Assembly (NCBI GenBank): GCA_013265495.1
Contig: MU057833.1
Coordinates: 40,646-104,645, forward strand
Direction of reading: 5' to 3'
Source of the DNA: Vicugna vicugna
Taxonomy: Eukaryota
Length of the DNA: 64,000 bases
The translations under genes and the position numbers were made by a program. Positions 2,620 through 57,873 of this stretch are shown piece by piece. Under the pieces are notes generated by a model. The model saw only the letters and a program-made list of their open reading frames with translations, did not search any database and was not told the origin of the DNA. Position 1 is the stretch's first letter. Every line of letters starts with the position of its first letter.

Positions 2620-3000
2620 TATTTACTGCTCAAAAAATAATAGTGATAATTTAAAAGATCCAAATGATAATAAAGTATTAAATTTCAAAACTTATGAGAT
2701 GCAGCAAGTGTAGTACCTGAGGGAAATAGTTGGCTTTGGGACAGCTACTAAAATAGATTCGGCTGAGATCAAATAAGAGAAAAAAGAGACAGGATTTAAA
2801 AATAAGACATTACTACAAATACAGCAGAAATTAAAGAACTAGAAGAAATTTTGTATAATTTTACAGCAAAATTTTTGAAAAGTTGAGCAAAATGGATAAA
2901 TTCCAGGAAAAAAAAACTTACCAAGAGTTACCCAAGGCAAAGTAGACAGTGTAACTATATATATAATCATTAAAGAAATTGAGTAAGCAGTTTAAAAATC
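2620..3000 (+). mobile_element. Old L1 ORF2 fragment
   Basis: L1-like phrases: aataagacattactacaaatacagcagaaattaaag, aaaatggataaattccaggaaaaa, cattaaagaaattgag. Confidence 0.7.
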
Positions 3001-3381
3001 TCTCTTCTTTCAAAGTAAAGAAAGGATGGTTTTCAGATGGTTTACATTTTCAAAATATGGATCTTCTGGGGGGTGGGATATGTAATTATTTTTAATAAAA
3101 AATTATTTTTCTCCAACAACTGGTTTGCACATGGAGGGCCGTGACCCATGGTCAATTCTCAAATACGGGCAACTGTTTGGACCCGCGGACACCCCCCCAG
3201 GACACATCCACGGCCTCCTCCCTTCCAGGATGACACGAGCGACCAAAGTCTGCATATTTCTTCCAGCTTCCAGTGTTAGAGCCCAAGAAAGCGCCTCCTT
3301 CTGACTGAGGGAGGGTCTTCACATCCTGGAGCGGGGCGTTTCCACTTGGCCCTGCCGGGCAGCAGGCGTGGCCACTCCAGG

Positions 3382-3744
3382 TCACCCCACCTGGCACGTC
3401 TGGATCACTTCCTGCAGGACCCTCACCCCCTCCACGCTCTTGCCTTTCACCGCCATGGCGAGCACTGCGCTGTTTCCAGCTGCTTGAGACACCAACGCCA
3501 CGGAGACGTTCTTGGCGAAGACGTGGATGAGAGGTCCGGCCAGCCGAGGAGACTTCAGTGGCGAGCACGGGCTTGCCGGTGTCACTGGTCACGTTGCTGG
3601 GTTCCAGGGAGACCAGGGGCCCCATTTTCCCGAACTGGGTCCCACTACCAGGATGTGGTTGCTGAAGGCTGTGCAGACCTCCTGGGTTGGGACCCCACAC
3701 ACCACATCAGTCTTCTGTTTTGATACCAATGGTTTGTCCTCCAT
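3382..3744 (-). pseudogene. PSMG3: PSMG3 (proteasome assembly chaperone 3) processed pseudogene, CDS part
   Basis: From the ATG at 3744 the minus strand gives MEDKPLVSKQKTDVVCGVPTQEVCTAFSNHILVV / TQFGKMGPLVSLEPSNVTSDTGKPVLAT / PLIHVFAKNVSVALVSQAAGNSAVLAMAVKGKSVEGVRVLQEVIQTCQVG*. This matches recalled PSMG3 across three frames. It is intronless with at least 2 frameshifts. Outer boundaries are unclear. Confidence 0.93.
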
Positions 3745-3849
3745 GGCTGCATCTGTTCAATGGTAACTTTAGTTCATCAGATAGGCCTTGGGGCTCCAGA
3801 ATATATACCACTTGGGATTAAAACAGAACACTGACCGGGGGTTGGGGCA

Positions 3850-3943
3850 GGGGGGTGCGTATAGCTCAGTGGTAGAGTGCGTGCTTAGCCTGTATGAGGT
3901 CCTGGGTTCAATCCCCAGTACCTCCACTTTAAAAAAAAAAAAA
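3850..3943 (+). mobile_element. tRNA-derived SINE (camelid Vic-1-like)
   Basis: A box tagctcagtggtag, B box ggttcaatccc, then cctccacttt and a poly-A tail. Confidence 0.88.
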
Positions 3944-4039
3944 TGTAGGCCCATTCGAAAGCCTGTCTCTGTTCATCCACACAGGTTTCATTCGCCTGGA
4001 ACTTTCTGGATTCATTAACTACACACACACATATACTCA

Positions 4040-4430
4040 GGCCAGGCAGAGGCGGGTTGTCAAACAGGCTTTTGTCTCTAGAGGTGGGTTGGGAACTGTT
4101 CTCTCCCACGCGCTCGAGTCCCTCGCTGTCCGCATCGGGTGACCCCACACCACCCTGAGGGCTCCCGTTTGAGTCGGGGGTGGGGAAGTAAGCAGGCCCC
4201 CCGGGCAGGTGGCCGCGCCCCCGCCGCCCCTCCTGCCCGCCCTCTGAGGTTGCAGTTTCCGCGTCTGGGGAACCAGGTCCCGCAGGATGAGCAGCAGCCC
4301 CGCCGCGGCGGGCGCGGGGCGGGGGGCGGAGGGCGGCGGGCGTGGGAGGGGCCCCCGGGGCCGCCCGCCCTCCCGCCCGGCTCCGGCCACCCCGCCCGCG
4401 CTCACCGGCCCGCCCGAAATACGGGTCTTG
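4040..4430. promoter_or_regulatory. CpG island directly upstream of the PSMG3 retrocopy
   Basis: Very GC- and CpG-rich with several GGGCGG boxes (4300-4415). It ends abruptly in AT-rich DNA at ~4430. Probably the carried-over 5' region of the PSMG3 transcript (inference). Confidence 0.65.
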
Positions 4431-14099: not shown

Positions 14100-15311
14100 T
14101 TTAAGAAAGAAGGAAATACTACCAGAGTAACCACTCCCATCCTTACAACGCTCCTTGTTGCTCTCCTCACCATAGCGCCAGCTCACAGGCACCCCTTACA
14201 CCACAGATGCCATCGCTAAACTTCCTCACGCATCTGACTGTCAGCTCAGCCCAGAGGACTGCAGCTGCGCCTCCCCAGAGGACATACGTCTTTTAGGACT
14301 CCTCGCCTCATTAGGGGACCTGGTGGGGCCAACGGCAAAATATGCTGGTTCCCACTTGCCATCCAGAGTGCAGGGCAGGGCAGGAGCTTCTCTGCTTGAC
14401 AGCGCCAGCTCACAGGCACCCCTCACACCACAGATGCCATCGCTAAACTTCCTCACGCATCTGACTGTCGGCTCAGCCCGTGCGGCTGCGCCTCCCCAGA
14501 GGACATATGTCTTTTAGGACTCCTCGCTTCCTTAGGGGACCTGGTGGGGCCAACGGCAAAATATGCTGGTTCTCACTTGCCATCCAGAGTGCAGGGCAGG
14601 GCAGGAGCTTCTCTGCTTGTCCAAATCAGGGGGAAGCGTGTTTCAACTTTCAGGCAAAGCTAGCCTGTTTTATTGGTACAAGCATCCAGGAAAAAAATTT
14701 TAGCTGGCCTAATGAAACATACCACAATCACACCCTAATGTTTGGTAATCATAGTGGGTGACAGACACCAACCAGACTGCCAATATCCAGTATATGGGAA
14801 AGGTCATTACCTGGTGGAAAAAACCTAGTGACCAAAATAAATAGAACAAAGACTCATAGTGAAAGCATAATAGTAGTTAACAACTCAGAAGACAAGGCCA
14901 GCAGAAGGGTCAGACAGCACTGCAGGCTGATGTTTAATATAGCTAGTATCCACTCCAATTTCTCCCATTTGCAGCTGCTGTGTCAGAATCTGAGATGCCA
15001 AGGGGGAAAGCCTCATGACTTCAGAAAAGTTCAACTGCAAGTGATGATGCATCAGAGATTTCAGTCCATCCTCCCTGAAGATAAAGACGATCAACGCCCA
15101 CTGGGCAGAGCTGCCACCTCCTTCCATTCCCCGCTCACCGTCTCCACCACCGTAAACAACCCTGCGACCCCTACCGCTGACACATGGCAAGGAGATCTGG
15201 GCCCCAGGTGGGGACAAAGCCCACGCTCAGCTTGAAGCAGTCATCAGAGATGAGCCATCAACTCTTTGCGCCTTGAAAGATTGTAAGGGTCCAGACGCCT
15301 CTAGGGGGGAA
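14100..15311 (+). mobile_element. Degenerate ERV1-like internal region (3' end / env tail)
   Basis: Env-tail-like KVQLQVMMHQRFQSILPED, cagcttgaagcagtc motif, and a purine tract AGGGGGAA just before the LTR. The left boundary is uncertain. Confidence 0.55.
14174..14619 (+). repeat. Tandem duplication, 2 x ~225 bp
   Basis: agcgccagctcacaggcacccc...gcttctctgcttg at 14174-14398 and again at 14401-14619, near-identical. Confidence 0.95.
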
Positions 15312-15891
15312 CATTAGAACAGGCACATAGCAGGGAAAGGGGAACTCAGGCCGAACCAGACATCTTGTAAACTAGGGCATTTCTTAGGCAGACAAAGAAA
15401 AGCAGGGACCTCTGGACTGACAGAGAAGCACACATTTTGGGGCGACAAGAGTCCTGGAGGCAGACAAGGAAAAAGTGGGAAAAGGTGGGACTCTCTGGCA
15501 TCCAAATGTCACCTTTTGCTTCTTAGGCCCTTCTTATAATAAAGTCAGTCTTGCACATATGAAGTGCCCATCATGCACTGACACCAGGACACTTCGGATC
15601 CAGACTAAATAAGGACAGAAGCCCCTCCTCCCCTCAGGAAGGTGGAGATGGGATGGAAATCAGAAAACATGACCCCAAATCCCTCTGCTCCCATGACTGT
15701 CCCAGTCACTTACTTTTACACCCTGTGTAGCCGGCTTGCCAAGGACACAGCACGGCCACTTGCCCGAGGCTGCGTGCTCTCTGTCGGAGAGTGTGCCGTT
15801 GCTTAATAAATCTTCAGTTTGCTTTCTTAACCTCTGGGTCTCACCCCTGAATTATTCCTGCAATTATACAAGAACCTACTCTCTGGTAACA
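15312..15891 (+). mobile_element. ERV LTR (3' LTR)
   Basis: Follows the PPT. Starts cattagaac (decayed tgttag), has AATAAA at ~15805 and ends tggtaaca. Confidence 0.75.
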
Positions 15892-17980: not shown

Positions 17981-18468
17981 ATTTTCCATTCCCATTGTCC
18001 TTGCTCTTCCCATCTTCTTTCCCCTTCCCTTCACAGAGCACGGTTGTTGAAGGGTAATAGCTAGCTCAGTGGTGGTGGGAATGGGGAGAGGAGACATCCT
18101 GAGGCACAATGATACTGTGTCTGCCAGCGTCCAAGGATGCGAGGTGCTGGGCTGGGTGTAAGATACCACACAAAAGCACTTTGGCTGTGTACTCACTACC
18201 ACCTGATTACAAAGCACTCTGTGGCCGCGGAATCTACGCGAAGCATGTTGGCAGCGTAGGGTACATGCTGAAGGGGTTGGGTGCAGATGCAGCAGGTGGC
18301 AGCGATGGAGGAAATGAACAGCACACCTGCAGTGTCAGCTGCACTGAGCAAACAAGTAAATAAATACACTGAAGATATTGAAGGTTTCTCATTAGAGAAA
18401 GCACTTCAAAATATCCGAAGGGTAGAGAGACATCACCCTTGATGTTAGAATCCACTATATGTACCATT

Positions 18469-18639: not shown

Positions 18640-19204
18640 TTGATTTTTAAAAGACCTAGAAGTAATGACACCCCACTGGAAATGAACATATCCAGTACTC
18701 AGATCTTGGTTTTAAATACCATTAGGGCTCTTTCGATAAATATTAGAAAAATGTAATACTCTAGGACTGTGACAGGGAAAGGACGAGAAGAGCTTAGGAC
18801 ATCTTGCAGTGGCAGATGCTTAACAAATGTCAGAAACATGTCAAGAAGATACAAGAGTCAGCTTGAAGGGGCTCCCTTCTGGCCAACTGTGGGATGGTTA
18901 GGGTACCAAAATAAATGACAATAGCAACAGATTCAAAACGTTGAATGAAAAAGAAATTATGAGTTCATTCTGCTATAAATACATTATGAACACATTTATA
19001 AGTAGGGGGAAGTGGAAAGCTCTTTTTTATATTAAAATGCCCAAAATAATGTAGAAAATGAGGATGAAAATGGAAAAGTCGGGGGGCGGGCATAGCTCAG
19101 TGGTAGAGTGTGTGCTTAGCATGCATGAGGTCGTGGGTTCAATCCCCAGTCCCGCCAGCAAAAAAATAAATAAATAAACCTAATGACCTCCCTCCGCCAT
19201 CCTG

Positions 19205-20518: not shown

Positions 20519-22740
20519 CTGCTGCTCTCTCGCTGCTGCTTCGGCTTCCTGGCTCCGCCGCCCCCCGACGGAGAGGGCGCCGGCCATGGATGGTCAGGTA
20601 GCTTCTACCTCTTGCCACCCATCCCTGGCCACAACCAGCACGGAGCAGACGGTGGCAGCGGCGGCAGCAGGCGTGGAGGAAGACGGTGGGACGGCTGCCA
20701 GCCTGTGTGGTGGACTGCGGCACCAGGCATACAAAACTAGAGTATGCTGGAAATACAGAACCACAGTTTATCATCCCTGCTTGTACTGCCATTAAGGAGT
20801 CAGCACAAGTGGGCGATCAGGCTCAAAGGAGGGTGATGAAAGGTGCTGACAACCTAGACTTCCTCACTGGGGATGAAGCAGTAGAAAAACCTGCATATGC
20901 AACCAAGTGGCCGACCCGCCGCGGTGTCGTGGGAGATCGGGACTTGATGGAAAGGTCTGCGGAGCAAGTGATCTTTACACATTTAAGGGCAGAACCTGAG
21001 GCCATTATTTTCTCTTGACGGAGCCTCCACTGAGCGCTTCAGGAAACAGGGAGCGCACCGCTGACGTAGCGTGTGAGCCCTTCGGCGCTGCAGGCTTGCC
21101 CTCTGCTGCCCAGGCCGCTCTTGCCGTCGCTGCTTCCGGGGCCCCAGGACAAGGAGGAGAACGGACGCGCACGGGGACGGGGACAGACGGTGGGGACGGT
21201 GGCACTCACGTCTTCCCTGTGGCTGAAGGGTATGTGACTGGCAGCTGTATCGAGCACATTCCAATCGCAGGACAAGACAGCATGTATTTTATTTGGCAGT
21301 TACTGAGAGACCGAGAAGTAGGAATTCCCCCAGAGCAGTCCTTGGAAACTGCTACGGCAGTACAGGAGCGCTGTACTTGTGTCTGCCCAGATTTCGTAAA
21401 AGAATTTGACAAGTATGATACAGACGGATCAAAGTGGATTAAACAGTATACTGGATCAACGCTGTCTCAGAGAAAGAATTTTCCATTGATGTTGGGTAGG
21501 AGAGATTCTTGGGACCTGAAATTCTTTTTCGTCCAGAGTTTGCTAACCCAGACTTTACTCACCCATCTCAGAAGTTGTAGATGGAGTGATTCAGAATTGT
21601 CCTATGATGTCAGACGCCCTCTCTACGAGAGTATTGTCCTCTCTGGAGATTCAACCGTGCTCAGGGACTTTGGATGATGCTTGCAAAGAGATTTGAAAAG
21701 AACTGTAGATGCCAGGCTGAAATTAAATGAGGAATTGGGTGGTGGTAGACTGAAGCCAAAACCTATTGATGAACAAGTCATTACACACCACATGCAGCGA
21801 CATGCTGTTTGGTTTGGAGGATCCACGCCGGCTTCCACGCCTGAGTTCTACCAAGCATGCCACACCAAAAAGGATCATGAAAACTTGGACCTAGCATTTG
21901 TCATCACAATCCGGCGTTTGGAGTCATGTCGTAAAATTGGCTTCATAGTTTTTGGGGTTAGGGAGGTGGGGAAGAAATAATCTTTCTGATTACCTGTTTT
22001 GTCTGGATGGCTGGGTTTGAGGTTTTAAACCTGACTTGAAATAATAAGACCAAACATAATTATACAGGAAGATTTTAATAAGTATATCAACATGTGAATG
22101 TAGAGGAGATCCAAAATGATTAAGTGTTTTTCTTTAGGCTGAATGTTTGACTCTTGTGTGTAACAAAAAGAAGTGGGTTTTAGTTCTTTCTGTGCCCTGG
22201 TATTTTGTATATTATTGAATTATCCAAGATTTGACGGGATTTATCGGTATGTGGATAGCTCTAAAATGCTCGTATTGTACACTTGGAAGTGTGCAGTGCA
22301 AGAGCTTGTTTATATTTCATACTTTTTATACTTTAAGGGGGAAAAAGTCAAAGAAAAACTAGTATTTGAGGGGAAAAAAAGTGACCAAGTAAAGGATAAA
22401 TTCAAAAAATAGCCATGGGACTTGGTGTACACACACACTCACGGGATTCCAGTTATTATGAATTGCTTCCATCCTCCTGTGCCCCCCAATGCTTTTCTCT
22501 GCAAGTGCTCTGGGGACTAAAAAGCTAGTATCCTGGATTAACTGACGCCTGCTAGTGCTTTGTGATTATTCGCATTCTGTTTCTCGCTTCAAAGGAAAAG
22601 TAAAGACAAGACTGTTGGACCATTATTGCAGTTCTGTGGTGCCATTTCTTATTAAAAAATGAATAATTTGATTACCAAAATTGGTATATTTAAAGACTAA
22701 CACCATTCTAATAAAGGCACGAATTTCTTTAAAAAAAAAA
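20519..22740 (+). pseudogene. ACTR3: ACTR3 (Arp3) full-length processed pseudogene
   Basis: [12 protein letters not shown]...[12 protein letters not shown] through ...HTKKD. Former CDS ~20683-21934 with ATG->ACG, several frameshifts and a premature TGA at 21675-21677. It has 5' and 3' UTRs, AATAAA at 22710, poly-A at 22731-22740, and TSD acctttta at 20511-20518 / 22740-22747. Confidence 0.97.
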
Positions 22741-23909
22741 CCTTTTAGATCCACCCCAATATTACTGAATCAGAACCCCTAAAGAGAAGGCTCTGCGTTT
22801 CATGCATATCTGAATTTTAACCAGTGTTGCCTTCAGCCCCAGTTATTTCTTACAGACGTGGAATTCAAAGAATCCTTGTTATGGTGGGCTTACCTACACC
22901 TTGCACTATTAGAAAAGCCGTCAGTCTGTGTATCTTAGATACTTCACTTGTGAGAGCTAGATTAATTTTAATATTCAATGTGTCTATTGATGGCTTCATT
23001 CTGCTGTGAAAGCTAGGTTCTCTGTCCCTCAAAGAGCCCTTCATGCTTCACACTGAGCATTCTTGCTACCTTTGGGGTGAGTCAAGTCCACATTGTAACA
23101 CTTCCTGATAGATGCAGCAAATATTTTCTATTAATTTCCTCAGATAAGGAAGCTGGGATGGATAGAGGCTAAATGACTTGCCTTGGGCTACATATCTCAT
23201 GAGAGGAAGAAATCTAGTCAACAGGTCACTTGCCTCTGAGTATTTTTTTCTGCATGAAACACTGCTCTGAATTTTGGAAATCCAAAATAGATGATCCATA
23301 AATTTGGGGTTTTGTACACCACGATTTGTGGAGATGCAGGCAGGATGTCTATCTCATAATGAGTTATGCCATTCCAACTTCCACCCACTGCAAAATGAAT
23401 TTCTCCCAGGTCCCTCCAGCACAGCAATTTCTCAACTGACTCCAGTAGGAAAGAGTGAAATGGAATTCAACTTGCTATGTAAATCACTCACTTTTCCTTT
23501 TATGTTTGTTTATCCATTGCTAGTCTGTTAGCTTGTTTTTTTCTTTCCAAATCAAGCTAGTAGCCAGGTCCCCTGAACATTTGATTGATTTTATCCAACA
23601 GTATTGAGTGGTGGTCTTCCATCATAGCTTAACCTGCTCATTTCATATAGTCAAGATGGTCAAGACTCTACTGTTTCAACTTTAAAGACTAAAGAACTAA
23701 ACTTCATGGTGGTACCCTTTTGTTGTCCATCATTTGCTGTTCAGTAAGTATCAAATGTTGTTCAGAGATATCAATACATCTTGTAATCACAAAAAAAAAT
23801 GAGTTTCTTGACAATATTTTTTTTTCTTTTTAATTGCTTTTATTCACATTATCGCCTTAAATCCTCATGAAGTACTGATGATACAGGTAAACACACTTTT
23901 TCCAAAATA

Positions 23910-28020: not shown

Positions 28021-28141
28021 GGGGCTTTCCAAGATGGCAGAGTACAAAGACCTTGATTTCATCTTCAGTCCTGGGCGCACCAAAATTACAACTATTTACA
28101 GAACCATTATCAGTAAAAAAAAAAAAAAAAAAAAAAAAAAA

Positions 28142-28692
28142 CCATGTCAACTGAAAAATAAAACGCACAACCTAAAAGCTGAGAATTATGTTTCATTTGG
28201 TGGACTTGCTGAGGACCACGGCCAGGAGGCAGCCTCTCAGATAGATCTGAGGGAAGGCTCTGAAGGGGCAAGGAAGGAGTCAGGGTTTACAGGGGTTTAT
28301 GCAAAAACAAGAAACAAAAAACCAGGTAGTAGGAACATCCAAATATCACTGTTAATTAAAATGAAGCAGGGGGAGGGTGTAGCTCAGGGGTAGAGTATGT
28401 GCTTAACAAAAAAAAAAAAAAAAGACCACATCAACTGAAAAATAAAGTGCACAACCTAAAAGCTGAAAATTATGTTTCATTTGGTGGACTTGCTGAGGAT
28501 CAAGGGCAGAAGGCAGCCTCTCAGACAGATCTGAGGGAAGGCTCTGAAGGGGCAAGGAAGGAGTCAGGGTTTACAGGGGTTTACGCAAAAACAAGAAACA
28601 AAAAACCGGGTAGTAGGAACATCCAAATATCACTGTTAATTAAAATGAAGCAGGGGGAGGGTGTAGCTCAGGGGTAGAGTATGTGCTTAACA
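28142..28692 (+). repeat. Tandem duplication, period 284 bp
   Basis: 28142-28408 is repeated at 28426-28692, separated by a poly-A run. Confidence 0.95.
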
Positions 28693-29034
28693 TGCACAAG
28701 GTCCTGGGTTCAATTCTCAGTACCTTCAGATAAATCAATCAATTAATCAATCAATCAATCACCTACTAACCCCCCAAGTAAAGTTTAAAAAAAAAAAGAA
28801 AATCAGATACCTCATTACTTAATTTAGCACTTTTCTATGTATGGGAAGATGCAAGAGTCTGGGCTCACTGAAATCTTTGCTGTGCACCTTCACCATCTAG
28901 GGCCAGTGTCCTGTTTTTCTTCACCCTGAATCCCCTCAGGGAACACAGCTGGGGGCAGCTGCGGTGGTTGATGGCTTGATGGTCACAACATCAACATGTT
29001 TACTAATATGGCAGGTGACCCTTTTTTACCCTCA
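28145..29034 (-). mobile_element. ERV1-like solo LTR inserted in the L1 5' UTR
   Basis: TG...CA termini (tgtcaac...ccctca) and a 4-bp TSD ACCA at 28141-28144 and 29035-29038. Contains a SINE and a tandem duplication. Confidence 0.75.
28653..28800 (+). mobile_element. tRNA-derived SINE (Vic-1-like); truncated head copy at ~28369-28408
   Basis: gggggagggtgtagctcaggggtagagtatgtgcttaacatgcacaaggtcctgggttcaattctcag plus tail. Confidence 0.88.
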
Positions 29035-43118: not shown

Positions 43119-45566
43119 GCAAATTGACCACCACAGTGATGAAACTTGTTGGGTGTGTCTGTATAGCTAGATGTACAAAAACCCTGTTCTTACTCTGTTA
43201 TATGTGCTCAAACGCTTTACATTATATTTGACTTCACTTCCCTGTCTTCAAAGAGTTACGAGTAATTCACCTATAAAAAACGTTTTTCGATTCCAAAAAA
43301 AGTCTCTGATTTTTTAATCCATATCTACTTGCACCATTTCTGCTTTAGTAAGGCATTCCTTTTCTTTTCTTTTGTTTGTATCCATCTTCCTTCTGTCTTC
43401 CTCCCATTAAAAGTTTTTTCCTAATCTTTTCTTTCTTTTCTGTCCTCTAATGTCTTTTCCGGTTTTGCATATTAATGACCCAAACTTGACAGTTTTTTTT
43501 ATTATAAGTATTCTGTATCTCTCAGAGTAGCCGATTTTTTAGCTAATTAAATTGACAGAAAGGTCTGCATAATTCTTGAAACAAAGCTTTATTAATTAAG
43601 TGAGCCTGAACGAGGAGCTGCAGCATGTGTTTGCAAAGGTGTAGTCTTGTCTTTATTTTAGGAAATCTAACCCTTATGCTACCTGGTAACTATCAAGGAA
43701 AATACGGTCAGAAGTATTAAAACAGTATCTTCAACAAAGTAGGAGTGGCAGGGCCAATTTCACTGAGGGTGTTTTGGCTTATTTTATACACATGATACAT
43801 CTCTCCATGATACCATGTTGTTTGTCATTTGAACCTCTCCACTGAGAATCCCTAACATCAGTCTGGACAGGGCTTTGTCCCTCCTCATTCACACTCTAAT
43901 TCCCAATTTCCTAGAAAAAAATATTTTCCACATTTTCTCACTTCTCTGTTCACTGAGATAAGATCCTAAATTTCAAGAGCTGGTAGGGACATCAAAATAG
44001 TCTAATGCAAATTTCTGATGAGATTCAGCCAAGAAGTTAGTGGTAGATTCATCAGAAGTCACAGGCCTCCATCCTCCCAATAAAAAAGCTTCTATGTTAT
44101 GTTCACCATGCCTTGTCTCACAGAGCTGATGATCTATTAAGGAGACGAGACATAGCTAAGAGAAACAGCTTAGAAGCTTAAGTAAAATAAAGAAAATACT
44201 GTGAAATCTGTGAATGCATTTTATAGATTCAATCATTTGAAATAAAGATTATTAGATTAATTTTTTATTTTTACTTAGTTGATCAAAACAATTATAAGCA
44301 GGGTTTGCTTGCCATAACTTAGTGGAACTTGACTAAGAGCCATAGCATCAATTGGGGGAAAAAAAAAAACAAGGAAGAGGAAGAAAGGGGCTGAAGAGAG
44401 AGAATGAGCTGTGGAGAGCAGTCGGAGCCCACTAATCAGAGCCCAGAGATGCCATAAACTAGTGGGAATGGCGAGCTGTACTCATAACCAGGTGAGGCGC
44501 CTGTATCCGGTTCTCGGTTCAGGCTTGACTGGCAGAGATGCTTCTAATTCTGGGAAGGAAACTACTGGCTCTTGACTTTATTGGTGAATTAGAGGAATTG
44601 CATCCTAGATGTTAACTGCACTTTAGACAAAACAGATAAACGCAGCAGGTCAGTATTTCAGGGCAGGACATGACAGTGCTTAGAACCAGGCTGAGTCACT
44701 CTGCGCATATAGGAGCCGGGGAACTCACCCTAAAATTCCAAACACTCGGCCTATTTGTGCTGGCAAAGTTGCCTGTAGCTGTCTGACATTAGAAAGGAGG
44801 CTCCAGGTTAATCTCTTAACCGTCTGCTAGTAAGCAGGTCTGGAAAGTCAATATATTACCTCTTCACCTTAGGTTATTTTTGTAATGGACACTTTGTAGA
44901 AGCAGATTCCAGTAACACCCCCAAATTTAATACTTTTATAACAATATTTTAAAATTAAAGTAGCCTTGGTCAATTGTAGACACTAAGTTAATGATTAAGG
45001 GGGAAACAGCTCTTATAGCAACCCAGCCAGCAAACAGCAGAGATGCCAGCAGACCTGCCAGCCTGCGCCGGGGATTCTAAAGTCGCAGGCAAGCCAGAAC
45101 GCGACAGGACAGTGCGTTTTACTCAGAGCCTGGAGAGAAGGTGAGGCTTCTGAAGTTCCGCTTTTCTCTGAACATATTAATGTTTTACTTAAAAGATATT
45201 GACTGGTTCCCAGTGGACAAACCATTAAGATTCACAGAGTGGATGAATGAATAAATGAGCGCCAGTGTTCATCATGGGCTATGCGCCATTCCACTTGACG
45301 TGTGGTGACAAGTCGAGTAGACAGCTAGCCTAATTATTTATCCTCTTTCATTAGCAGTTTATATCCCACATACCCCGTCTGGTTTTGCTTGTTGGTCGCT
45401 ACAAGCTTTGGAAAATTAAAAGTATATTTTCATTGAAAAGGAAACATTTTGGGGAACTGCAGACTAGAAAGTTAATCAAGACTTTAAGTTCTATTAAATC
45501 TGATAAGGTAGCTCTCAGTACACACCAGTCCATCTCGTTGAAAATGCAACAGACTGGAGTGTTCCA

Positions 45567-45715
45567 AGTGACTGACAGCTCCATTTGCCAGGCGGACATT
45601 TTGAGTGGCAGTTTCTCTTGCACGATGTCAATTTTGAGTGGCATCTCAACATCAAGAACACCTAATTCAGTGACTGACAGCTCCACATACAAAGAAGGGA
45701 AGTCCGGATGTCTCT
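45567..45715 (+). promoter_or_regulatory. Cluster of repeated TALE (PBX/PKNOX/MEIS)-like and ETS-like motifs
   Basis: agtgactgacagctcca occurs twice (~45567, ~45669), attttgagtggca occurs twice (45598, 45631), and ggaagtccggatgt lies at ~45698. Confidence 0.45.
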
Positions 45716-46159
45716 TCGGAGTTGAGGAGAGGCTGCGGAAGAGACAGCTTCTTTGGGCTTTGGGTCCTCCCCCACCCTTTTTTTCTGTGAACATTTCGCC
45801 ATCACTACTAAAAGAATATAAAATACACACATGTAAACAAGACAGCCCTTGGTTTGTCATAGCCGTGCTTCAGGTCAACGTAAATTTGTGCCGTGCCATA
45901 AAAAAAAAAGTTTGTATCCTCTAAATGATATGAAACACAGTCATTGTAAATCATTGTTGAGATTTTAGCCATGTCTCCTCATTGGCCTTATTGTTGCTTT
46001 AACCCACCAGAGGTAACTGATAAGACTCAATACTTTCTATTGTTCATGTGTGGGGCATACTTTTCACACTATTTAAAAAGAAACATCTTTGACATGAGAT
46101 TTTCGTTTACTGCAAAGCACATGGGGAGGCAATAATGGGGTTACTTAAAATAAGGAGAT

Positions 46160-46720
46160 TAGAGATTCCTCAAAAAACTAAAAACAGACTTACCATATGA
46201 TTCAGCAATCCTACTCCTGGGCATGTATCCAAAGGGAACTCTAATTTGAAAAGATACATGCACCCCAATGTTCACTTTATACAATAGCCAAGACATGGAA
46301 ACAACCTAAATGTCCATCAACAGATGACTGGATAGAGAGACTGTGGTGTATTTATACTGGAATACTACTCAACCATAAAAAGAATAAAATAATGCTACCT
46401 GCAGAAACATGGATGGGCCTACAGATCATCATTCTAAGTGAAGTGAGATAGAAAGAGAAAAAAAATACCATATGATATCACTCATATGTGGAATCTTAAA
46501 GCAAGAAAAAAAGAGGACACTAATGAACTCATCTACAAAACAGAAACAAACTCACAGACACAGTAAACAATCTTATGATTACTAGGGGAAAGAGGGTGGG
46601 AAGGGATACATTTGGGAGTTTGAAATTTGAAAGTATTAACCACCATATATATAAATAGATTTTAATAAATTCTTCTGTATAGCACAGGGAACTATATTCA
46701 ATATATTGTATTAATCGTAA
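46160..46720 (+). mobile_element. L1 3' fragment
   Basis: gacttaccatatgattcagcaatcc...aaagatacatgcaccccaatgttc...ctgtatagcacagggaactatattc. Confidence 0.9.
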
Positions 46721-47328
46721 TTAATTGTATTTATGTATTTCCCACAAAAATGAATGGGAAAGTGGGAAAAGAAAAAAAGATTAGACCCCATGACCTTATT
46801 GTCTCTTTTAACACTAAGAACATGCAGGTTCTCTATCAATCTAGTCCTCTAATAATTTTTAAAACTCTTCGTCAGCAGTTTTCTTGACCCCAACCGCCAT
46901 CCCGTGAAAGGCAAATGACCAGTACTAACATTTCTGCATCACAGACCTTGAAATCACAGCTCTGCGAGGTACGAGCCTTCTGAACAGCCACCAAGCGCTC
47001 GAGCGGGAGAGCGGCGCCCCTGCTGGACGCGACCTTCTGGTTGCTGGCCCAGAGCTCCTTCTAGTATCACTTGTCATTTCAATTCAATTTCCTTCATTGT
47101 AACTGGTGTTACAAATACTTCCCAACTTCGCTCCTTTTCCTGCCGTGGCTTTACTTTCAATGATTCAATCTGCTGGTTGGGTGTTAGCGAGAGCGTCCCT
47201 TTCTCAGGCTCGTAACCTGTGATGGCTTCTCACTGAATAACGAATTGAATGCGTAATTTCTCAGCTTTGTGGAATTCTATAGAATGGTCCCAGATTACCT
47301 TTCCAGGCTTATGTCTATAATAGCCTCC

Positions 47329-49498: not shown

Positions 49499-51730
49499 TG
49501 TTTTGGGGTTTGGTTTTGTTTTGTTTTGTTTTTCACGTTAGAGGAACTGACTTTATTTGGTTAAAAGCGTCTCCTGTGTAAAGTGAAGAATGCCCCTGCA
49601 GACTGGTTCGGGGAAGGGAGAAGTGCCGAGGGGTGGAGGGGGAAGGTCCGCGCCCCCACAGGTCAGAGCACGGGGTGGGATTGCGTTCTTTGAGCCCAGC
49701 CTCCTGCTCCTCCGTCGGCACAGAGCCCACTTCCTTTCAGCCTGCTCCGGGTGGTCCTCAAGGCCAGAGATCAGGAACTAGGGTACCGGCTAGGGTTAGA
49801 GGTCAGGAGGTCGTAGGTCGCTCTCTGGAGACTGGGGGCAGAGATGGGAGCGCTCCTCAAGGTCAGGGGGCACGGGGCGAGAAGACTCTTCTCCGGACTC
49901 AGCGTTCAGGACTTGGGAGCTGCCCTCAGCCTGCCCCCCTCCCCAGGCCCCCAGGCCCTCTGAACAGAGCTCCTGGTTCCGCTCCTTCCAGCAGCGGAGT
50001 TTCTCCCCAGGCAGCTGGGGGTCCCCGAGTGCCTCCTCCAGGGCCTGCCGCTCCCGCGGCTCCGCCTCGGGCGTGCTCTGCCGCGGTGCGCGCGCTCACT
50101 GGGCTGCGGGTCCCGCTTGCGCTCTGCCGGTGCTCCCGAGTGGAGGGCTGCGGCTGGCCCGGGAGGGCCACGCCACCCTGCCCCAAGCCCCGTACCCTCC
50201 CCTCCAGTGCCCCCTCGCTGCTGCCCTGCGCGGGGGTGGAGGCGGGTGATGCGTCTCTGTGGGGTGGGGGAGGCAGAGCGGGATCCAGCCTCATCGTCAG
50301 CGCCTTCTGCTTCCGCCTGGCTGTATGTAGCAGCCTTCCTCTCGGGGCAGGGGGCCGGCCTGGAGGCTGGTGCTTGGAAGTGCAGGTAATAAGATGGCGC
50401 AGCCACCTGCTCAGATCCGTCAGGGTATGGGCATTGAAGATGAAGGGCTTATACCCTCCATGGGTGAGCTGGAACACGCATTTTTTCTTCTGATCTTGTC
50501 CACTTCCCAGACTGTAGCTGGGACGTTGATGAGGCCCTCTGCCTTCTCATCCTGGGGCTGGCGGTACCGGTCGAGCGTGTGTCCCTTGAGCCCTCATCCG
50601 CGGCGGCGCCAGCGCGGGCCGTGCAGCCCCCCGGCCCCCTGCGGGAGGAGCCAGCCGCCAGGTCAGGCCGGCCCAGCTCCCGGCCGGACCCCCCACCCCC
50701 ACCCCGCGGCTCAGCTGCGTCGCCACGCCTTTTGATTTTTTGTGACTTCTGTCAGGGTGCTCTGGGGCTCGGGAGTGTCTGCTACCCCTGCTGGGAGTGT
50801 GGCTGGGGGTGCAGGCGGGCTGGGCAGGGGCTCCGGGTCAAGGGAAGTCGAGTCTGTCCAGGAAGCGGGGCTGGGCCCAGGACTTGGGTTCGAAGTCAGG
50901 TCGAAGGCAAAGACGTCTTCGGACAGGGCCCTGGGAGCCAGCGGGCCGGAGCCGGCGACGGGCTCACTGGGTGGGAGGAGCTCAGGGCCTGAGGAGGGCT
51001 GGGGCCGGGGGGGGGGTCCTCCGGGAGCGGGACCTCCTTCAGCACAAAGCTGACCCTCCCCGGCTCCCGCAGCAGCTCCCTCACCGCGTGCTTATGGGGC
51101 CAGCCCAGCACCGCCTGCTCGTTGACCTGGGCAGTATCGTCTCCAGGCAGAATCTGTAGTCCGGAGTCGTTGGGGACCTGGGACCCCCTCGAGACACGAA
51201 GTGCAGGCAGTTGCTGGCGGTGTGGATCTCCAGACCCAGAGGATCGTCCAGCGGCAGGCGCTCCAGCCGGCCCTCTGCTCCCGCAGCTCCTCCCGGCTGC
51301 AGCTCGGGACGCTGTGGCACATCCCAGCCACGTGGCTGCAGATCCTCAGGACCTTGCTTTCCTTCTCAGCCGTCGGACAGTCCTGTTGAGCCAGGAGAGG
51401 AGGAAACAGGCCTCTTGCACTAGCTCCACGACCGTACTGAGGACATCTGCAGGGGGCTCGGCGCAGCCCCCCAGGCGACCTTGGGCTAAGCTCTGAAACG
51501 CCTGAATCCTCTCCAGCACCCACTCTGTTAGGCTCTGCAGGTTCTCTGACTGGATCCCGGAGCTCAGGGCCCGGAGCTGCCCCATGCCTGTCGGGATGAG
51601 CTCCTGGTGGCCCAGAGGCCACACAGTTAGAGCCTCCAGGCTTCAGGGGCAGGGCTGGAAAAGGTGCTTGCCAGGCAGCTCCCAGTCCTCAGAGCAACAG
51701 TCCAGCAGGGAATCATCCAGGCCCGGAGCG
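49499..51730 (-). pseudogene. CNKSR1: CNKSR1 processed pseudogene
   Basis: Minus-strand frames give GLDDSL, LGHQEL, ENLQSLTE, VLRICSHVAGMCH, PLGLEIHTASNCLHFVS, GWPHKHAVRELLREP, FQLTHGGYKPFIF and ...LRPPDL* (stop at 49796). These cover the SAM/CRIC/PDZ/PH regions, intronless, with many frameshifts. AATAAA at 49552-49557 and a decayed tail at 49499-49533. Confidence 0.95.
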
Positions 51731-51894
51731 GTGGGGGGTGGTCAGTGTCGGGGGAGTCTGGGGGTGTCAAGGCCTTTACAGTCAGGTCTTCAATCCTGCA
51801 AAGCTCTTGTCCTAATGACAATTCTGAGACCCAGGCTGTATTCTGCCCAGTTTACAGATAACGGCTACTGAGTTGAGAAGTAGGACCGTGTAGG

Positions 51895-52020
51895 GCAGCA
51901 GCTTGCAAAGGACGATCCCCAGACAGCAGCAGCGGCCTCACTGAGAACCTTTTAGAAATACAAATTCTCCACCCACCCTCCGCACCTGCTGAGTCAGACC
52001 TCCAGGAGCTCATGTTTTAA
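51895..52020 (+). mobile_element. MER5A-like fragment
   Basis: cagcagcagcggcctcactgagaaccttttagaaatacaaattctcc...cctgctgagtcaga. Confidence 0.65.

Positions 52021-55121: not shown

Positions 55122-57873
<2,752 letters not shown>

What the first reader, a model, noticed from the sequence alone, without database searches (positions are those of the whole stretch)
20900..21225. Sharp AT->GC hypermutated patch creating a new CpG-rich island inside the ACTR3 retrocopy
Arp3 is very conserved, yet this ~320-bp stretch is heavily altered, almost always towards G/C. Recalled KWPIRHGIVEDWD...[62 protein letters not shown] has become [13 protein letters not shown]...[62 protein letters not shown]. The 3' half ([14 protein letters not shown]...) is barely changed. 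Dead retrocopies normally lose CpG, but this one gained it. Both A->G and T->C occur on the same strand, which argues against ADAR editing. The inferred cause is GC-biased gene conversion at a long-lived recombination hotspot.
Basis: partly seen in the sequence, partly recalled or inferred. Interest (0 to 1): 0.75.

Follow-up and report, generated by a model that had tools for sequence, protein, structure and literature searches.

The report
Dead ACTR3 copy with GC-conversion peak
A broken, intron-less copy of the actin-related gene ACTR3 has a roughly 1-kb peak where A/T bases were replaced by G/C about 16 times faster than normal; this is the expected footprint of GC-biased gene conversion at a recombination hotspot, a known process seen here very clearly.

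Summary
Confirmed against the intact 12-exon parent in the same assembly. In 20900-21225, 63 of 182 A/T sites became G/C, only 1 of 144 G/C sites became A/T, and CpGs rose from 7 to 27; polarised, 48/141 versus 1/104. No closer donor exists. The changes are strand-symmetric, include transversions, ignore codon position and CpG context, and follow the ordinary neighbour spectrum. That excludes editing, protein-level selection and an A/T mutator, and fits gBGC (B about 16, range 10-27). The patch is the top of a ~1-kb peak centred near 21,090, not sharp-edged. Two other retrocopies in the window are also W>S-biased (equilibrium GC 0.68-0.74, against 0.35-0.47 for ACTR3 copies elsewhere), so the effect is partly regional. 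The imported 5'UTR CpGs were not protected, so they are not an evident seed. PRDM9 looks intact, so this is not the canid case. 'Long-lived' has modest support (S>W deficit P=0.03 unpolarised, 0.12 polarised). Recombination and methylation were not measured. Known process; modest interest.

The parts
20519..22730 (+). ACTR3 processed pseudogene (5'UTR, CDS, 3'UTR; no introns)
   Evidence: Colinear with the 12 spliced exons of the parent on G000:C8191
20503..20518 (+). 5' target-site duplication, 14/16 identical to the 3' copy
   Evidence: Sequence; the TT/AAAA L1-endonuclease consensus is recalled
22731..22747 (+). poly(A) remnant (A10) running into the 3' target-site duplication
   Evidence: Sequence
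20519..20729 (+). Imported CpG-rich 5'UTR and first codons of the parent; start codon ATG>ACG at 20683; CpGs decaying
   Evidence: CpG 19 in parent: 10 kept, 9 lost, 6 gained; CpG-site S>W 8/38 vs 4.2 expected
20683..21934 (+). Disabled coding region: five 1-bp deletions (near 20998, 21454, 21560, 21604, 21881) and two stops in the parent frame (21497, 21675)
20900..21225 (.). Core of the W>S peak; new CpG-island-like sequence (63% GC, o/e 0.84)
20730..21680 (.). Whole W>S peak with shoulders (113 W>S, 11 S>W, 8 neutral changes), centre ~21,090
21936..22729 (+). 3'UTR, near-background control (equilibrium GC 0.44 unpolarised, 0.63 polarised)
49537..52009 (-). Second retrocopy (PH-domain gene; CNKSR1-like, name recalled), W>S-biased regional comparator
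   Evidence: Multi-exon parent on C11847; W>S 170/942, S>W 56/1440; weak PH hit below cut-off
55183..57319 (+). Third retrocopy (zf-4CXXC gene; CDCA7-like, name recalled), mildly W>S-biased; 3' end not delimited
   Evidence: Parent on C12403; W>S 105/1090, S>W 48/953; PF10497 in the parent exon

Best explanation
An ACTR3 mRNA was retroposed by L1 machinery and died (shown). A meiotic double-strand-break hotspot then formed in its first coding exons, centred near 21,090 (inferred). Repair of A/T:G/C mismatches in heteroduplex DNA favoured G/C, so ordinary new W>S mutations fixed about 16 times faster than neutral and S>W mutations were held back, with a fall-off over a few hundred bases as conversion tracts would give (pattern shown, cause inferred). 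With no protein constraint every codon position recorded the bias, and CpGs arose as a by-product. The hotspot was probably active for much of the copy's life, or reused repeatedly, in a region whose background gBGC is also raised. My split within this explanation: about 55% PRDM9-independent stable hotspot, 45% one or several PRDM9-directed episodes.
For: W>S 63/182 vs S>W 1/144; polarised 48/141 vs 1/104. Strand symmetry, A>G 22 vs T>C 24, P=0.88. W>S transversions 26 vs W-W 4, control 17 vs 26, P=8e-5. Transition:transversion ratio among W>S same as control, P=0.6. Codon positions 18/50, 23/64, 22/68, with 42 of 63 non-synonymous. No CpG-creating preference (T>C 7/31 before G vs 17/60 otherwise). 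Neighbour-base profile parallels the control copy. Peaked shape. The control retrocopy L022 has no such patch. W>S fold 15.6 (9.6-27); non-CpG S>W 1 vs 5.4 expected, P=0.03, and 5 vs 12.3 over 20819-21618, P=0.017. Neighbouring retrocopies are biased the same way (P=0.003 without the ACTR3 copy).
Against: No recombination, DSB, methylation or allele-frequency data. The S>W deficit weakens when polarised (1 vs 3.7, P=0.12); the hotspot could have been idle for up to ~68% of the copy's life. The neutral clock rests on 16 changes and one control copy. W-W and S-S changes are 2.4-fold higher in the core (6/326 vs 6/793, P=0.12), and a weak WA/TW context preference appears (69/296 vs 44/268, P=0.045), so some extra mutagenesis is possible. 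The imported 5' CpGs decayed (8/38 vs 4.2 expected), against the simple idea that an unmethylated imported island seeded a default hotspot. Four SINE copies on the contig show no bias (8 W>S, 10 S>W, underpowered).
Confidence: 0.9

Rival explanations
1. Selection for a new CpG-rich promoter, enhancer or imprinted region inside the retrocopy, as with PPP1R26P1 in RB1.
For: The core meets a compositional CpG-island definition. Retrocopy CGIs have become promoters (PMC3839921, passages).
Against: 63 fixations with no preference for CpG-creating sites and a smooth 1-kb gradient are not what selection on binding sites gives. In the RB1 case the CGI was inherited from the parent and maintained, not built. 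No host gene was found: 1 of the 138 right-flank ORFs scanned (of 162 listed) had a Pfam hit; ORFs in the window and left flank were not scanned systematically.
Confidence: 0.04
2. A local mutational process acting on A/T (ADAR hyper-editing of the template mRNA, or error-prone polymerase eta-like synthesis).
For: Weak WA/TW preference, P=0.045; slight excess of neutral changes in the core (P=0.12).
Against: T>C equals A>G on one strand, and 17 of 63 are transversions, so not ADAR. An A/T mutator should also give A-T changes: 4 against 26 W>S transversions (P=8e-5 vs control). All 4 control copies show the same direction of WA>SA preference. A mutator does not explain the S>W deficit.
Confidence: 0.03
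3. The patch came from a GC-richer paralogue (ACTR3B-like or another copy) by template switching or ectopic conversion, or the parent itself decayed towards A/T.
For: ACTR3B-like loci exist (63-64% amino-acid identity over one exon). Six core sites are shared with L022 and may be parent-side changes.
Against: A genome search with the core finds only itself and two parent exons at 84% and 79%. 42 of 63 changes alter amino acids, whereas the parent still matches solved Arp3. 48 of the 54 polarisable W>S differences are on the retrocopy branch.
Confidence: 0.02
4. Assembly or sequencing artefact.
For: Fragmentary assembly (12,405 contigs).
Against: Held nearly whole by DNA runs of 6 studies under 4 organism labels; no N in the stretch.
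Confidence: 0.01

Closest known systems
gBGC-generated non-genic CpG islands in dog (Berglund et al. 2015, PMC4350167; abstract and passages seen)
   Same: Extreme local W>S skew creating a new CpG island away from genes.
   Different: Dogs lack PRDM9; this genome has open KRAB, SSXRD, PR/SET and zinc-finger exons. Dog hotspots sit at unmethylated CGIs; here the pre-existing CGI piece decayed and the peak lies ~400 bp from it.
PRDM9-independent ('default') hotspots in placentals with intact PRDM9 (Joseph et al. 2024, PMC11161765; section 8, passages and supplement tables seen)
   Same: Sharp equilibrium-GC peak in a species with full-length PRDM9.
   Different: Those are conserved hypomethylated promoter-like loci orthologous to mouse hotspots, with class-average B of 0.56 (Bos) and 1.85 (Mirounga) in the rows seen; this is one lineage-specific pseudogene locus with B about 16 by a different estimator. 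No Camelus, Vicugna or Lama entry in the 4 supplement files.
Biased substitution hotspots in genes, HARs and mouse Fxy (Berglund, Pollard and Webster 2009, PMC2631073, passages); episodic gBGC in Murinae and ~100-kb gerbil clusters (PMC12290510, passages)
   Same: Sub-kilobase W>S clusters that override codon constraint; regional clusters of several peaks.
   Different: Here the target is neutral DNA, so the rate can be read directly, and divergence is far higher (35-47% of W sites).
PPP1R26P1 retrocopy CGI in RB1 (Kanber et al. 2013, PMC3839921, passages)
   Same: A dead retrocopy with a CpG island.
   Different: That CGI was inherited from the parent exon, lies in a host-gene intron and is an imprinted promoter; this one was built after insertion and has no shown host gene or function.

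Membership tests
Processed pseudogene | Introns of the parent missing | tested here: met
   12 parent exons colinear without introns
Processed pseudogene | poly(A) tail and target-site duplication | tested here: met
   A10 at 22731-22740; 14/16 TSD
Processed pseudogene | Disabled reading frame | tested here: met
   ATG>ACG, five 1-bp deletions, two stops
gBGC tract | W>S excess with S>W deficit | tested here: met
   63/182 vs 1/144; deficit P=0.03 unpolarised, 0.12 polarised
gBGC tract | GC-neutral changes (A-T, C-G) not accelerated | tested here: inconclusive
   6/326 vs 6/793, P=0.12; far below the ~16-fold W>S excess
gBGC tract | Strand-symmetric, transitions and transversions, independent of codon position | tested here: met
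gBGC tract | Peaked, about 1-2 kb wide | tested here: met
   Laplace scale ~185 bp, shoulders over ~1 kb
gBGC tract | Derived W>S alleles at high frequency | not tested
   No allele-level comparison among individuals or species was obtained
gBGC tract | Coincides with measured recombination or DSBs | not testable with these tools
   No map or DMC1 data
Canid-type hotspot (PRDM9 lost) | PRDM9 pseudogenised | tested here: not met
   Eight exons on G000:C4951 read open with GT/AG ends; KRAB, SSXRD, PR and zf-C2H2 Pfam hits. First coding exon not located; the finger array has an assembly gap
PRDM9-independent (default) hotspot | Germline-hypomethylated, promoter-like site | tested here: inconclusive
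   Sequence proxy only: imported 5' CpGs not protected (8/38 vs 4.2 expected); core CpG sites 0/14 S>W, which gBGC alone explains
PRDM9-independent (default) hotspot | Stable over evolutionary time | tested here: inconclusive
   S>W deficit allows up to ~68% idle time; B of ~150 needed if active 10% of the time
PRDM9-directed hotspot | PRDM9 target motif at the centre | not testable with these tools
   Finger array incomplete; past alleles unknown
CpG island | >=200 bp, GC>50%, o/e>0.6 (thresholds recalled) | tested here: met
   326 bp, 63%, 0.84
CpG island | >=500 bp, GC>=55%, o/e>=0.65 (stricter thresholds, recalled) | tested here: not met
   Merged call is 480 bp, 58%, 0.77
CpG island | Unmethylated in germline | not testable with these tools
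   No methylation data
Retrocopy-derived imprinted promoter (RB1 type) | CGI inherited from the parent and placed in a host-gene intron | tested here: not met
   21 of 27 CpGs are new; no host gene found (partial scan)

The most novel reading that the evidence does not exclude
Camelids, although PRDM9 looks intact, run very strong and stable hotspots away from genes that do not need a pre-existing unmethylated CpG island: they start in plain DNA, write their own island by gBGC, and may then be kept by it, a self-reinforcing loop. Camelids were not among the 52 mammals surveyed by Joseph et al.. Dead retrocopies with a conserved parent would serve as dated, neutral recorders of this.
Probability: 0.25. 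Interest if true: 0.6.

Novelty: new member of a known kind. Interest (0 to 1): 0.33.

Why it matters
As it stands, it is a clean neutral-DNA measurement of extreme gBGC (B about 16, 35-47% of A/T sites converted) and a reminder that orphan CpG islands and apparently accelerated sequence can be by-products of recombination. It would matter more if it reflects a lineage-wide use of stable, non-promoter hotspots in a PRDM9-bearing mammal not yet surveyed: that bears on the open questions of what positions PRDM9-independent hotspots and whether gBGC and CpG islands feed each other.

Tried and rejected
The parent mRNA alone shares 0.116 of the words, so they say nothing about transcription of the retrocopy.

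SINE map: 24 copies, only 4 on this contig, no difference from other loci (P=1); underpowered.

Chromosome placement: a LANCL2-like first exon lies just right of the window (name recalled), and alpaca LANCL2 is on the smallest autosome, chr36 (PMC6598621, passages). But the LanC-like exons are on other contigs and this piece is a 70-86% partial duplicate, so placement on chr36 is not supported. An EGFR-family search did not help. TTAGGG/CCCTAA counts stay at 0-4 per 2 kb on the fetched part of the 147-kb contig.

Window 44600-47300 as a further retrocopy: the 40 scored hits were one repeat; no parent seen; its two ORFs have no Pfam hit. The PSMG3-like copy at 3075-4400 has only other copies as comparators, so it was not polarised and was left out of the pooled test. 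L023 (3'UTR only) was left out of the codon-position test.

The bacterial promoter scan is irrelevant here; the repeat search found only chance-level pairs.

Literature: searches found no paper on gBGC peaks in camelid retrocopies. The library lacks most subscription papers, so this is not proof of absence. Lin et al. 2001 (vic-1) was seen only as a reference in SINEBase; the match of the SINE to vic-1, and hence 'camelid', is recalled, not tested against a consensus.

Full report
What is there. Window 20519-22730 is a full-length processed copy of ACTR3. A genome search found the parent on G000:C8191 and four other copies. The parent has 12 exons with GT-AG introns and an intact 418-aa ORF that agrees with solved Arp3 chains over the aligned stretch. 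The copy has a poly(A) remnant, a 14/16 target-site duplication, a lost start codon, five 1-bp deletions and two stops. It is dead as a protein gene.

The observation. Against the parent, 20900-21225 shows W>S at 63 of 182 A/T sites, S>W at 1 of 144 G/C sites, and 6 GC-neutral changes in 326 sites. The 3'UTR shows 23/516, 16/277 and 6/793. GC rises from 44% to 63% and CpG from 7 to 27. With an older ACTR3 retrocopy (L022) as outgroup, 48/141 W>S and 1/104 S>W fall on this copy's branch, 6 sites may be parent-side and 5 are ambiguous. None of 5000 permutations approached the observed cluster. The shape is a peak, not a block: centre ~21,087, scale ~185 bp, with 12-14% W>S shoulders from 20,730 to 21,680. 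L022 has no such patch and shows the usual A/T-ward drift. The sequence is held nearly whole by 11 DNA runs in 6 studies besides the possible source.

Mechanism tests. Donor: a search with the core returned only itself and two parent exons. Editing: A>G 22 and T>C 24 on one strand (P=0.88), plus 17 transversions. Protein selection: rates of 0.36, 0.36 and 0.32 at the three codon positions, with 42 of 63 changes non-synonymous. CpG-specific process: no preference for CpG-creating sites. A/T mutator: W>S transversions 26 against A-T changes 4, control 17 against 26 (P=8e-5); the neighbour-base profile parallels the control. What remains is ordinary mutation with biased fixation, which is gBGC. 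Against this: a weak WA/TW preference (P=0.045), whose direction is shared by all 4 control copies, and a non-significant 2.4-fold rise of neutral changes in the core.

Strength and duration. Using GC-neutral changes as a clock (16 of 2206) and L022 for the spectrum, the core is 15.6-fold over neutral (range 9.6-27), and 21-fold in the central 200 bp. That is B of about 16 averaged over the copy's life. The implied neutral divergence is ~4.3%, roughly 20-40 million years at a recalled rate of 1-2e-9 per site per year; this is rough. If the hotspot had been active for 10% or 4% of that time, B would have to be about 150 or 370. Non-CpG S>W changes are 1 against 5.4 expected (P=0.03), or 1 against 3.7 polarised (P=0.12); over 20819-21618 they are 5 against 12.3 (P=0.017; polarised 4 against 9.2, P=0.049). 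Long or repeated activity is therefore favoured, but up to ~68% idle time is allowed.

What positions it. PRDM9 on G000:C4951 has eight open exons with KRAB, SSXRD, PR/SET and zinc-finger hits; the first coding exon was not located and the finger array has an assembly gap. So this is not the canid case. The obvious idea, that the CpG-rich 5'UTR imported with the mRNA seeded a default hotspot, is not supported: its CpG sites changed 8/38 times against 4.2 expected from the control (polarised 4/21 against 2.2), and the peak lies ~400 bp downstream. Numbers are small, and some of those differences may be parent-side gains. PRDM9-independent and PRDM9-directed origins both stay open.

Regional context. 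Two more retrocopies in the window have parents in the assembly. At codon positions 1+2 of the longest parental ORF recovered, equilibrium GC is 0.74 (34/228 vs 21/405) and 0.68 (33/351 vs 16/358); it is 0.83 for this copy and 0.35, 0.47 and 0.42 for three ACTR3 copies on other contigs. The two neighbours differ from the off-contig set even without the ACTR3 copy (P=0.003). These counts are not polarised by an outgroup, the genes differ, and the copy at 49.5-52 kb has local peaks of its own (24/64 at 50000-50199). Four SINEs gave no signal. The ACTR3 peak is the strongest measured, in a region of raised background bias. The contig could not be placed on a chromosome.

Comparison. gBGC creating non-genic CpG islands is described in dog (PMC4350167, abstract and passages). 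Active PRDM9-independent hotspots in mammals with intact PRDM9 are described in PMC11161765 (section 8, passages, supplement tables), whose 52 species include no camelid by term search. Sub-kilobase W>S clusters are classical (PMC2631073, passages). The RB1 retrocopy island was inherited, not built (PMC3839921, passages). 'Camelid' rests on a recalled SINE match and genome size. Unchecked earlier notes of this scan list similar peaks elsewhere in this genome (8 shown of 33 fitting). They are leads, not support, but they make this locus less singular and the lineage-wide question more worth asking.

Verdict. Observation confirmed; gBGC at a recombination hotspot 0.9; a new member of a known kind; interest 0.33. 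Recombination, methylation, transcription and allele frequencies were not measured.

Noticed in passing
window 49537-52009 (-): Retrocopy of a multi-exon PH-domain gene (CNKSR1-like, name recalled); W>S 170/942 vs S>W 56/1440, CpG 84>136, local peaks near 50.0-50.2 and 50.6 kb.
   Followed up: partly
window 55183-57319 (+): CDCA7-like retrocopy (name recalled; zf-4CXXC in parent), milder W>S bias peaking near 56.0 kb, with a ~77-bp insertion near 56265-56342.
   Followed up: partly
window 3075-4400 (-): PSMG3-like (PAC3) copy carrying a SINE, with paralogues on C1645 and C861; its 5' GC-rich end shows W>S 12/35 and 15/41 against them. Four retrocopies within 55 kb is dense.
   Followed up: partly
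L037:200-1400 (contig 104.8-106.0 kb): Strong CpG island holding a LANCL2-like first exon (name recalled) as a diverged partial duplicate; related pieces on C6935 (twice) and C1196.
   Followed up: partly
L022, inside the C10346 ACTR3 retrocopy: A ~56-bp insertion that looks like the 5' half of a tRNA-Gly (recalled) with a short flanking duplication.
   Followed up: no
window 18040-18340: GC/CpG-richer stretch inside an otherwise AT-rich old L1-like 3' end (label recalled); possibly another W>S peak 2.8 kb left of the ACTR3 peak.
   Followed up: no
window 19083-19158: SINE copy with 3 W>S vs 1 S>W against the local consensus, the nearest SINE to the peak; not significant.
   Followed up: partly
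window 2900-3197 and contig C907:33499-33795: 298-bp stretch duplicated at 99% identity 10 kb upstream; recent duplication or assembly overlap.
   Followed up: no
window 28140-28410 and 28425-28700: Tandem ~275-bp duplication ending in a SINE start.
   Followed up: no
window 14165-14620 and ~14650-15890: Two ~235-bp tandem copies followed by LTR-like sequence (label recalled); seen only.
   Followed up: no
L039:2852-3169 (-): Ubiquitin-conjugating-enzyme match in one open frame, probably another retrocopy.
   Followed up: no
G000:C1699, C9408, C1562, C381: Four loci with ACTR3B-like exon pairs about 3-4 kb apart, suggesting segmental copies of part of that gene.
   Followed up: no
window 46866-47085: Small CpG-rich patch in AT-rich DNA with no parent or repeat match found.
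   Followed up: partly
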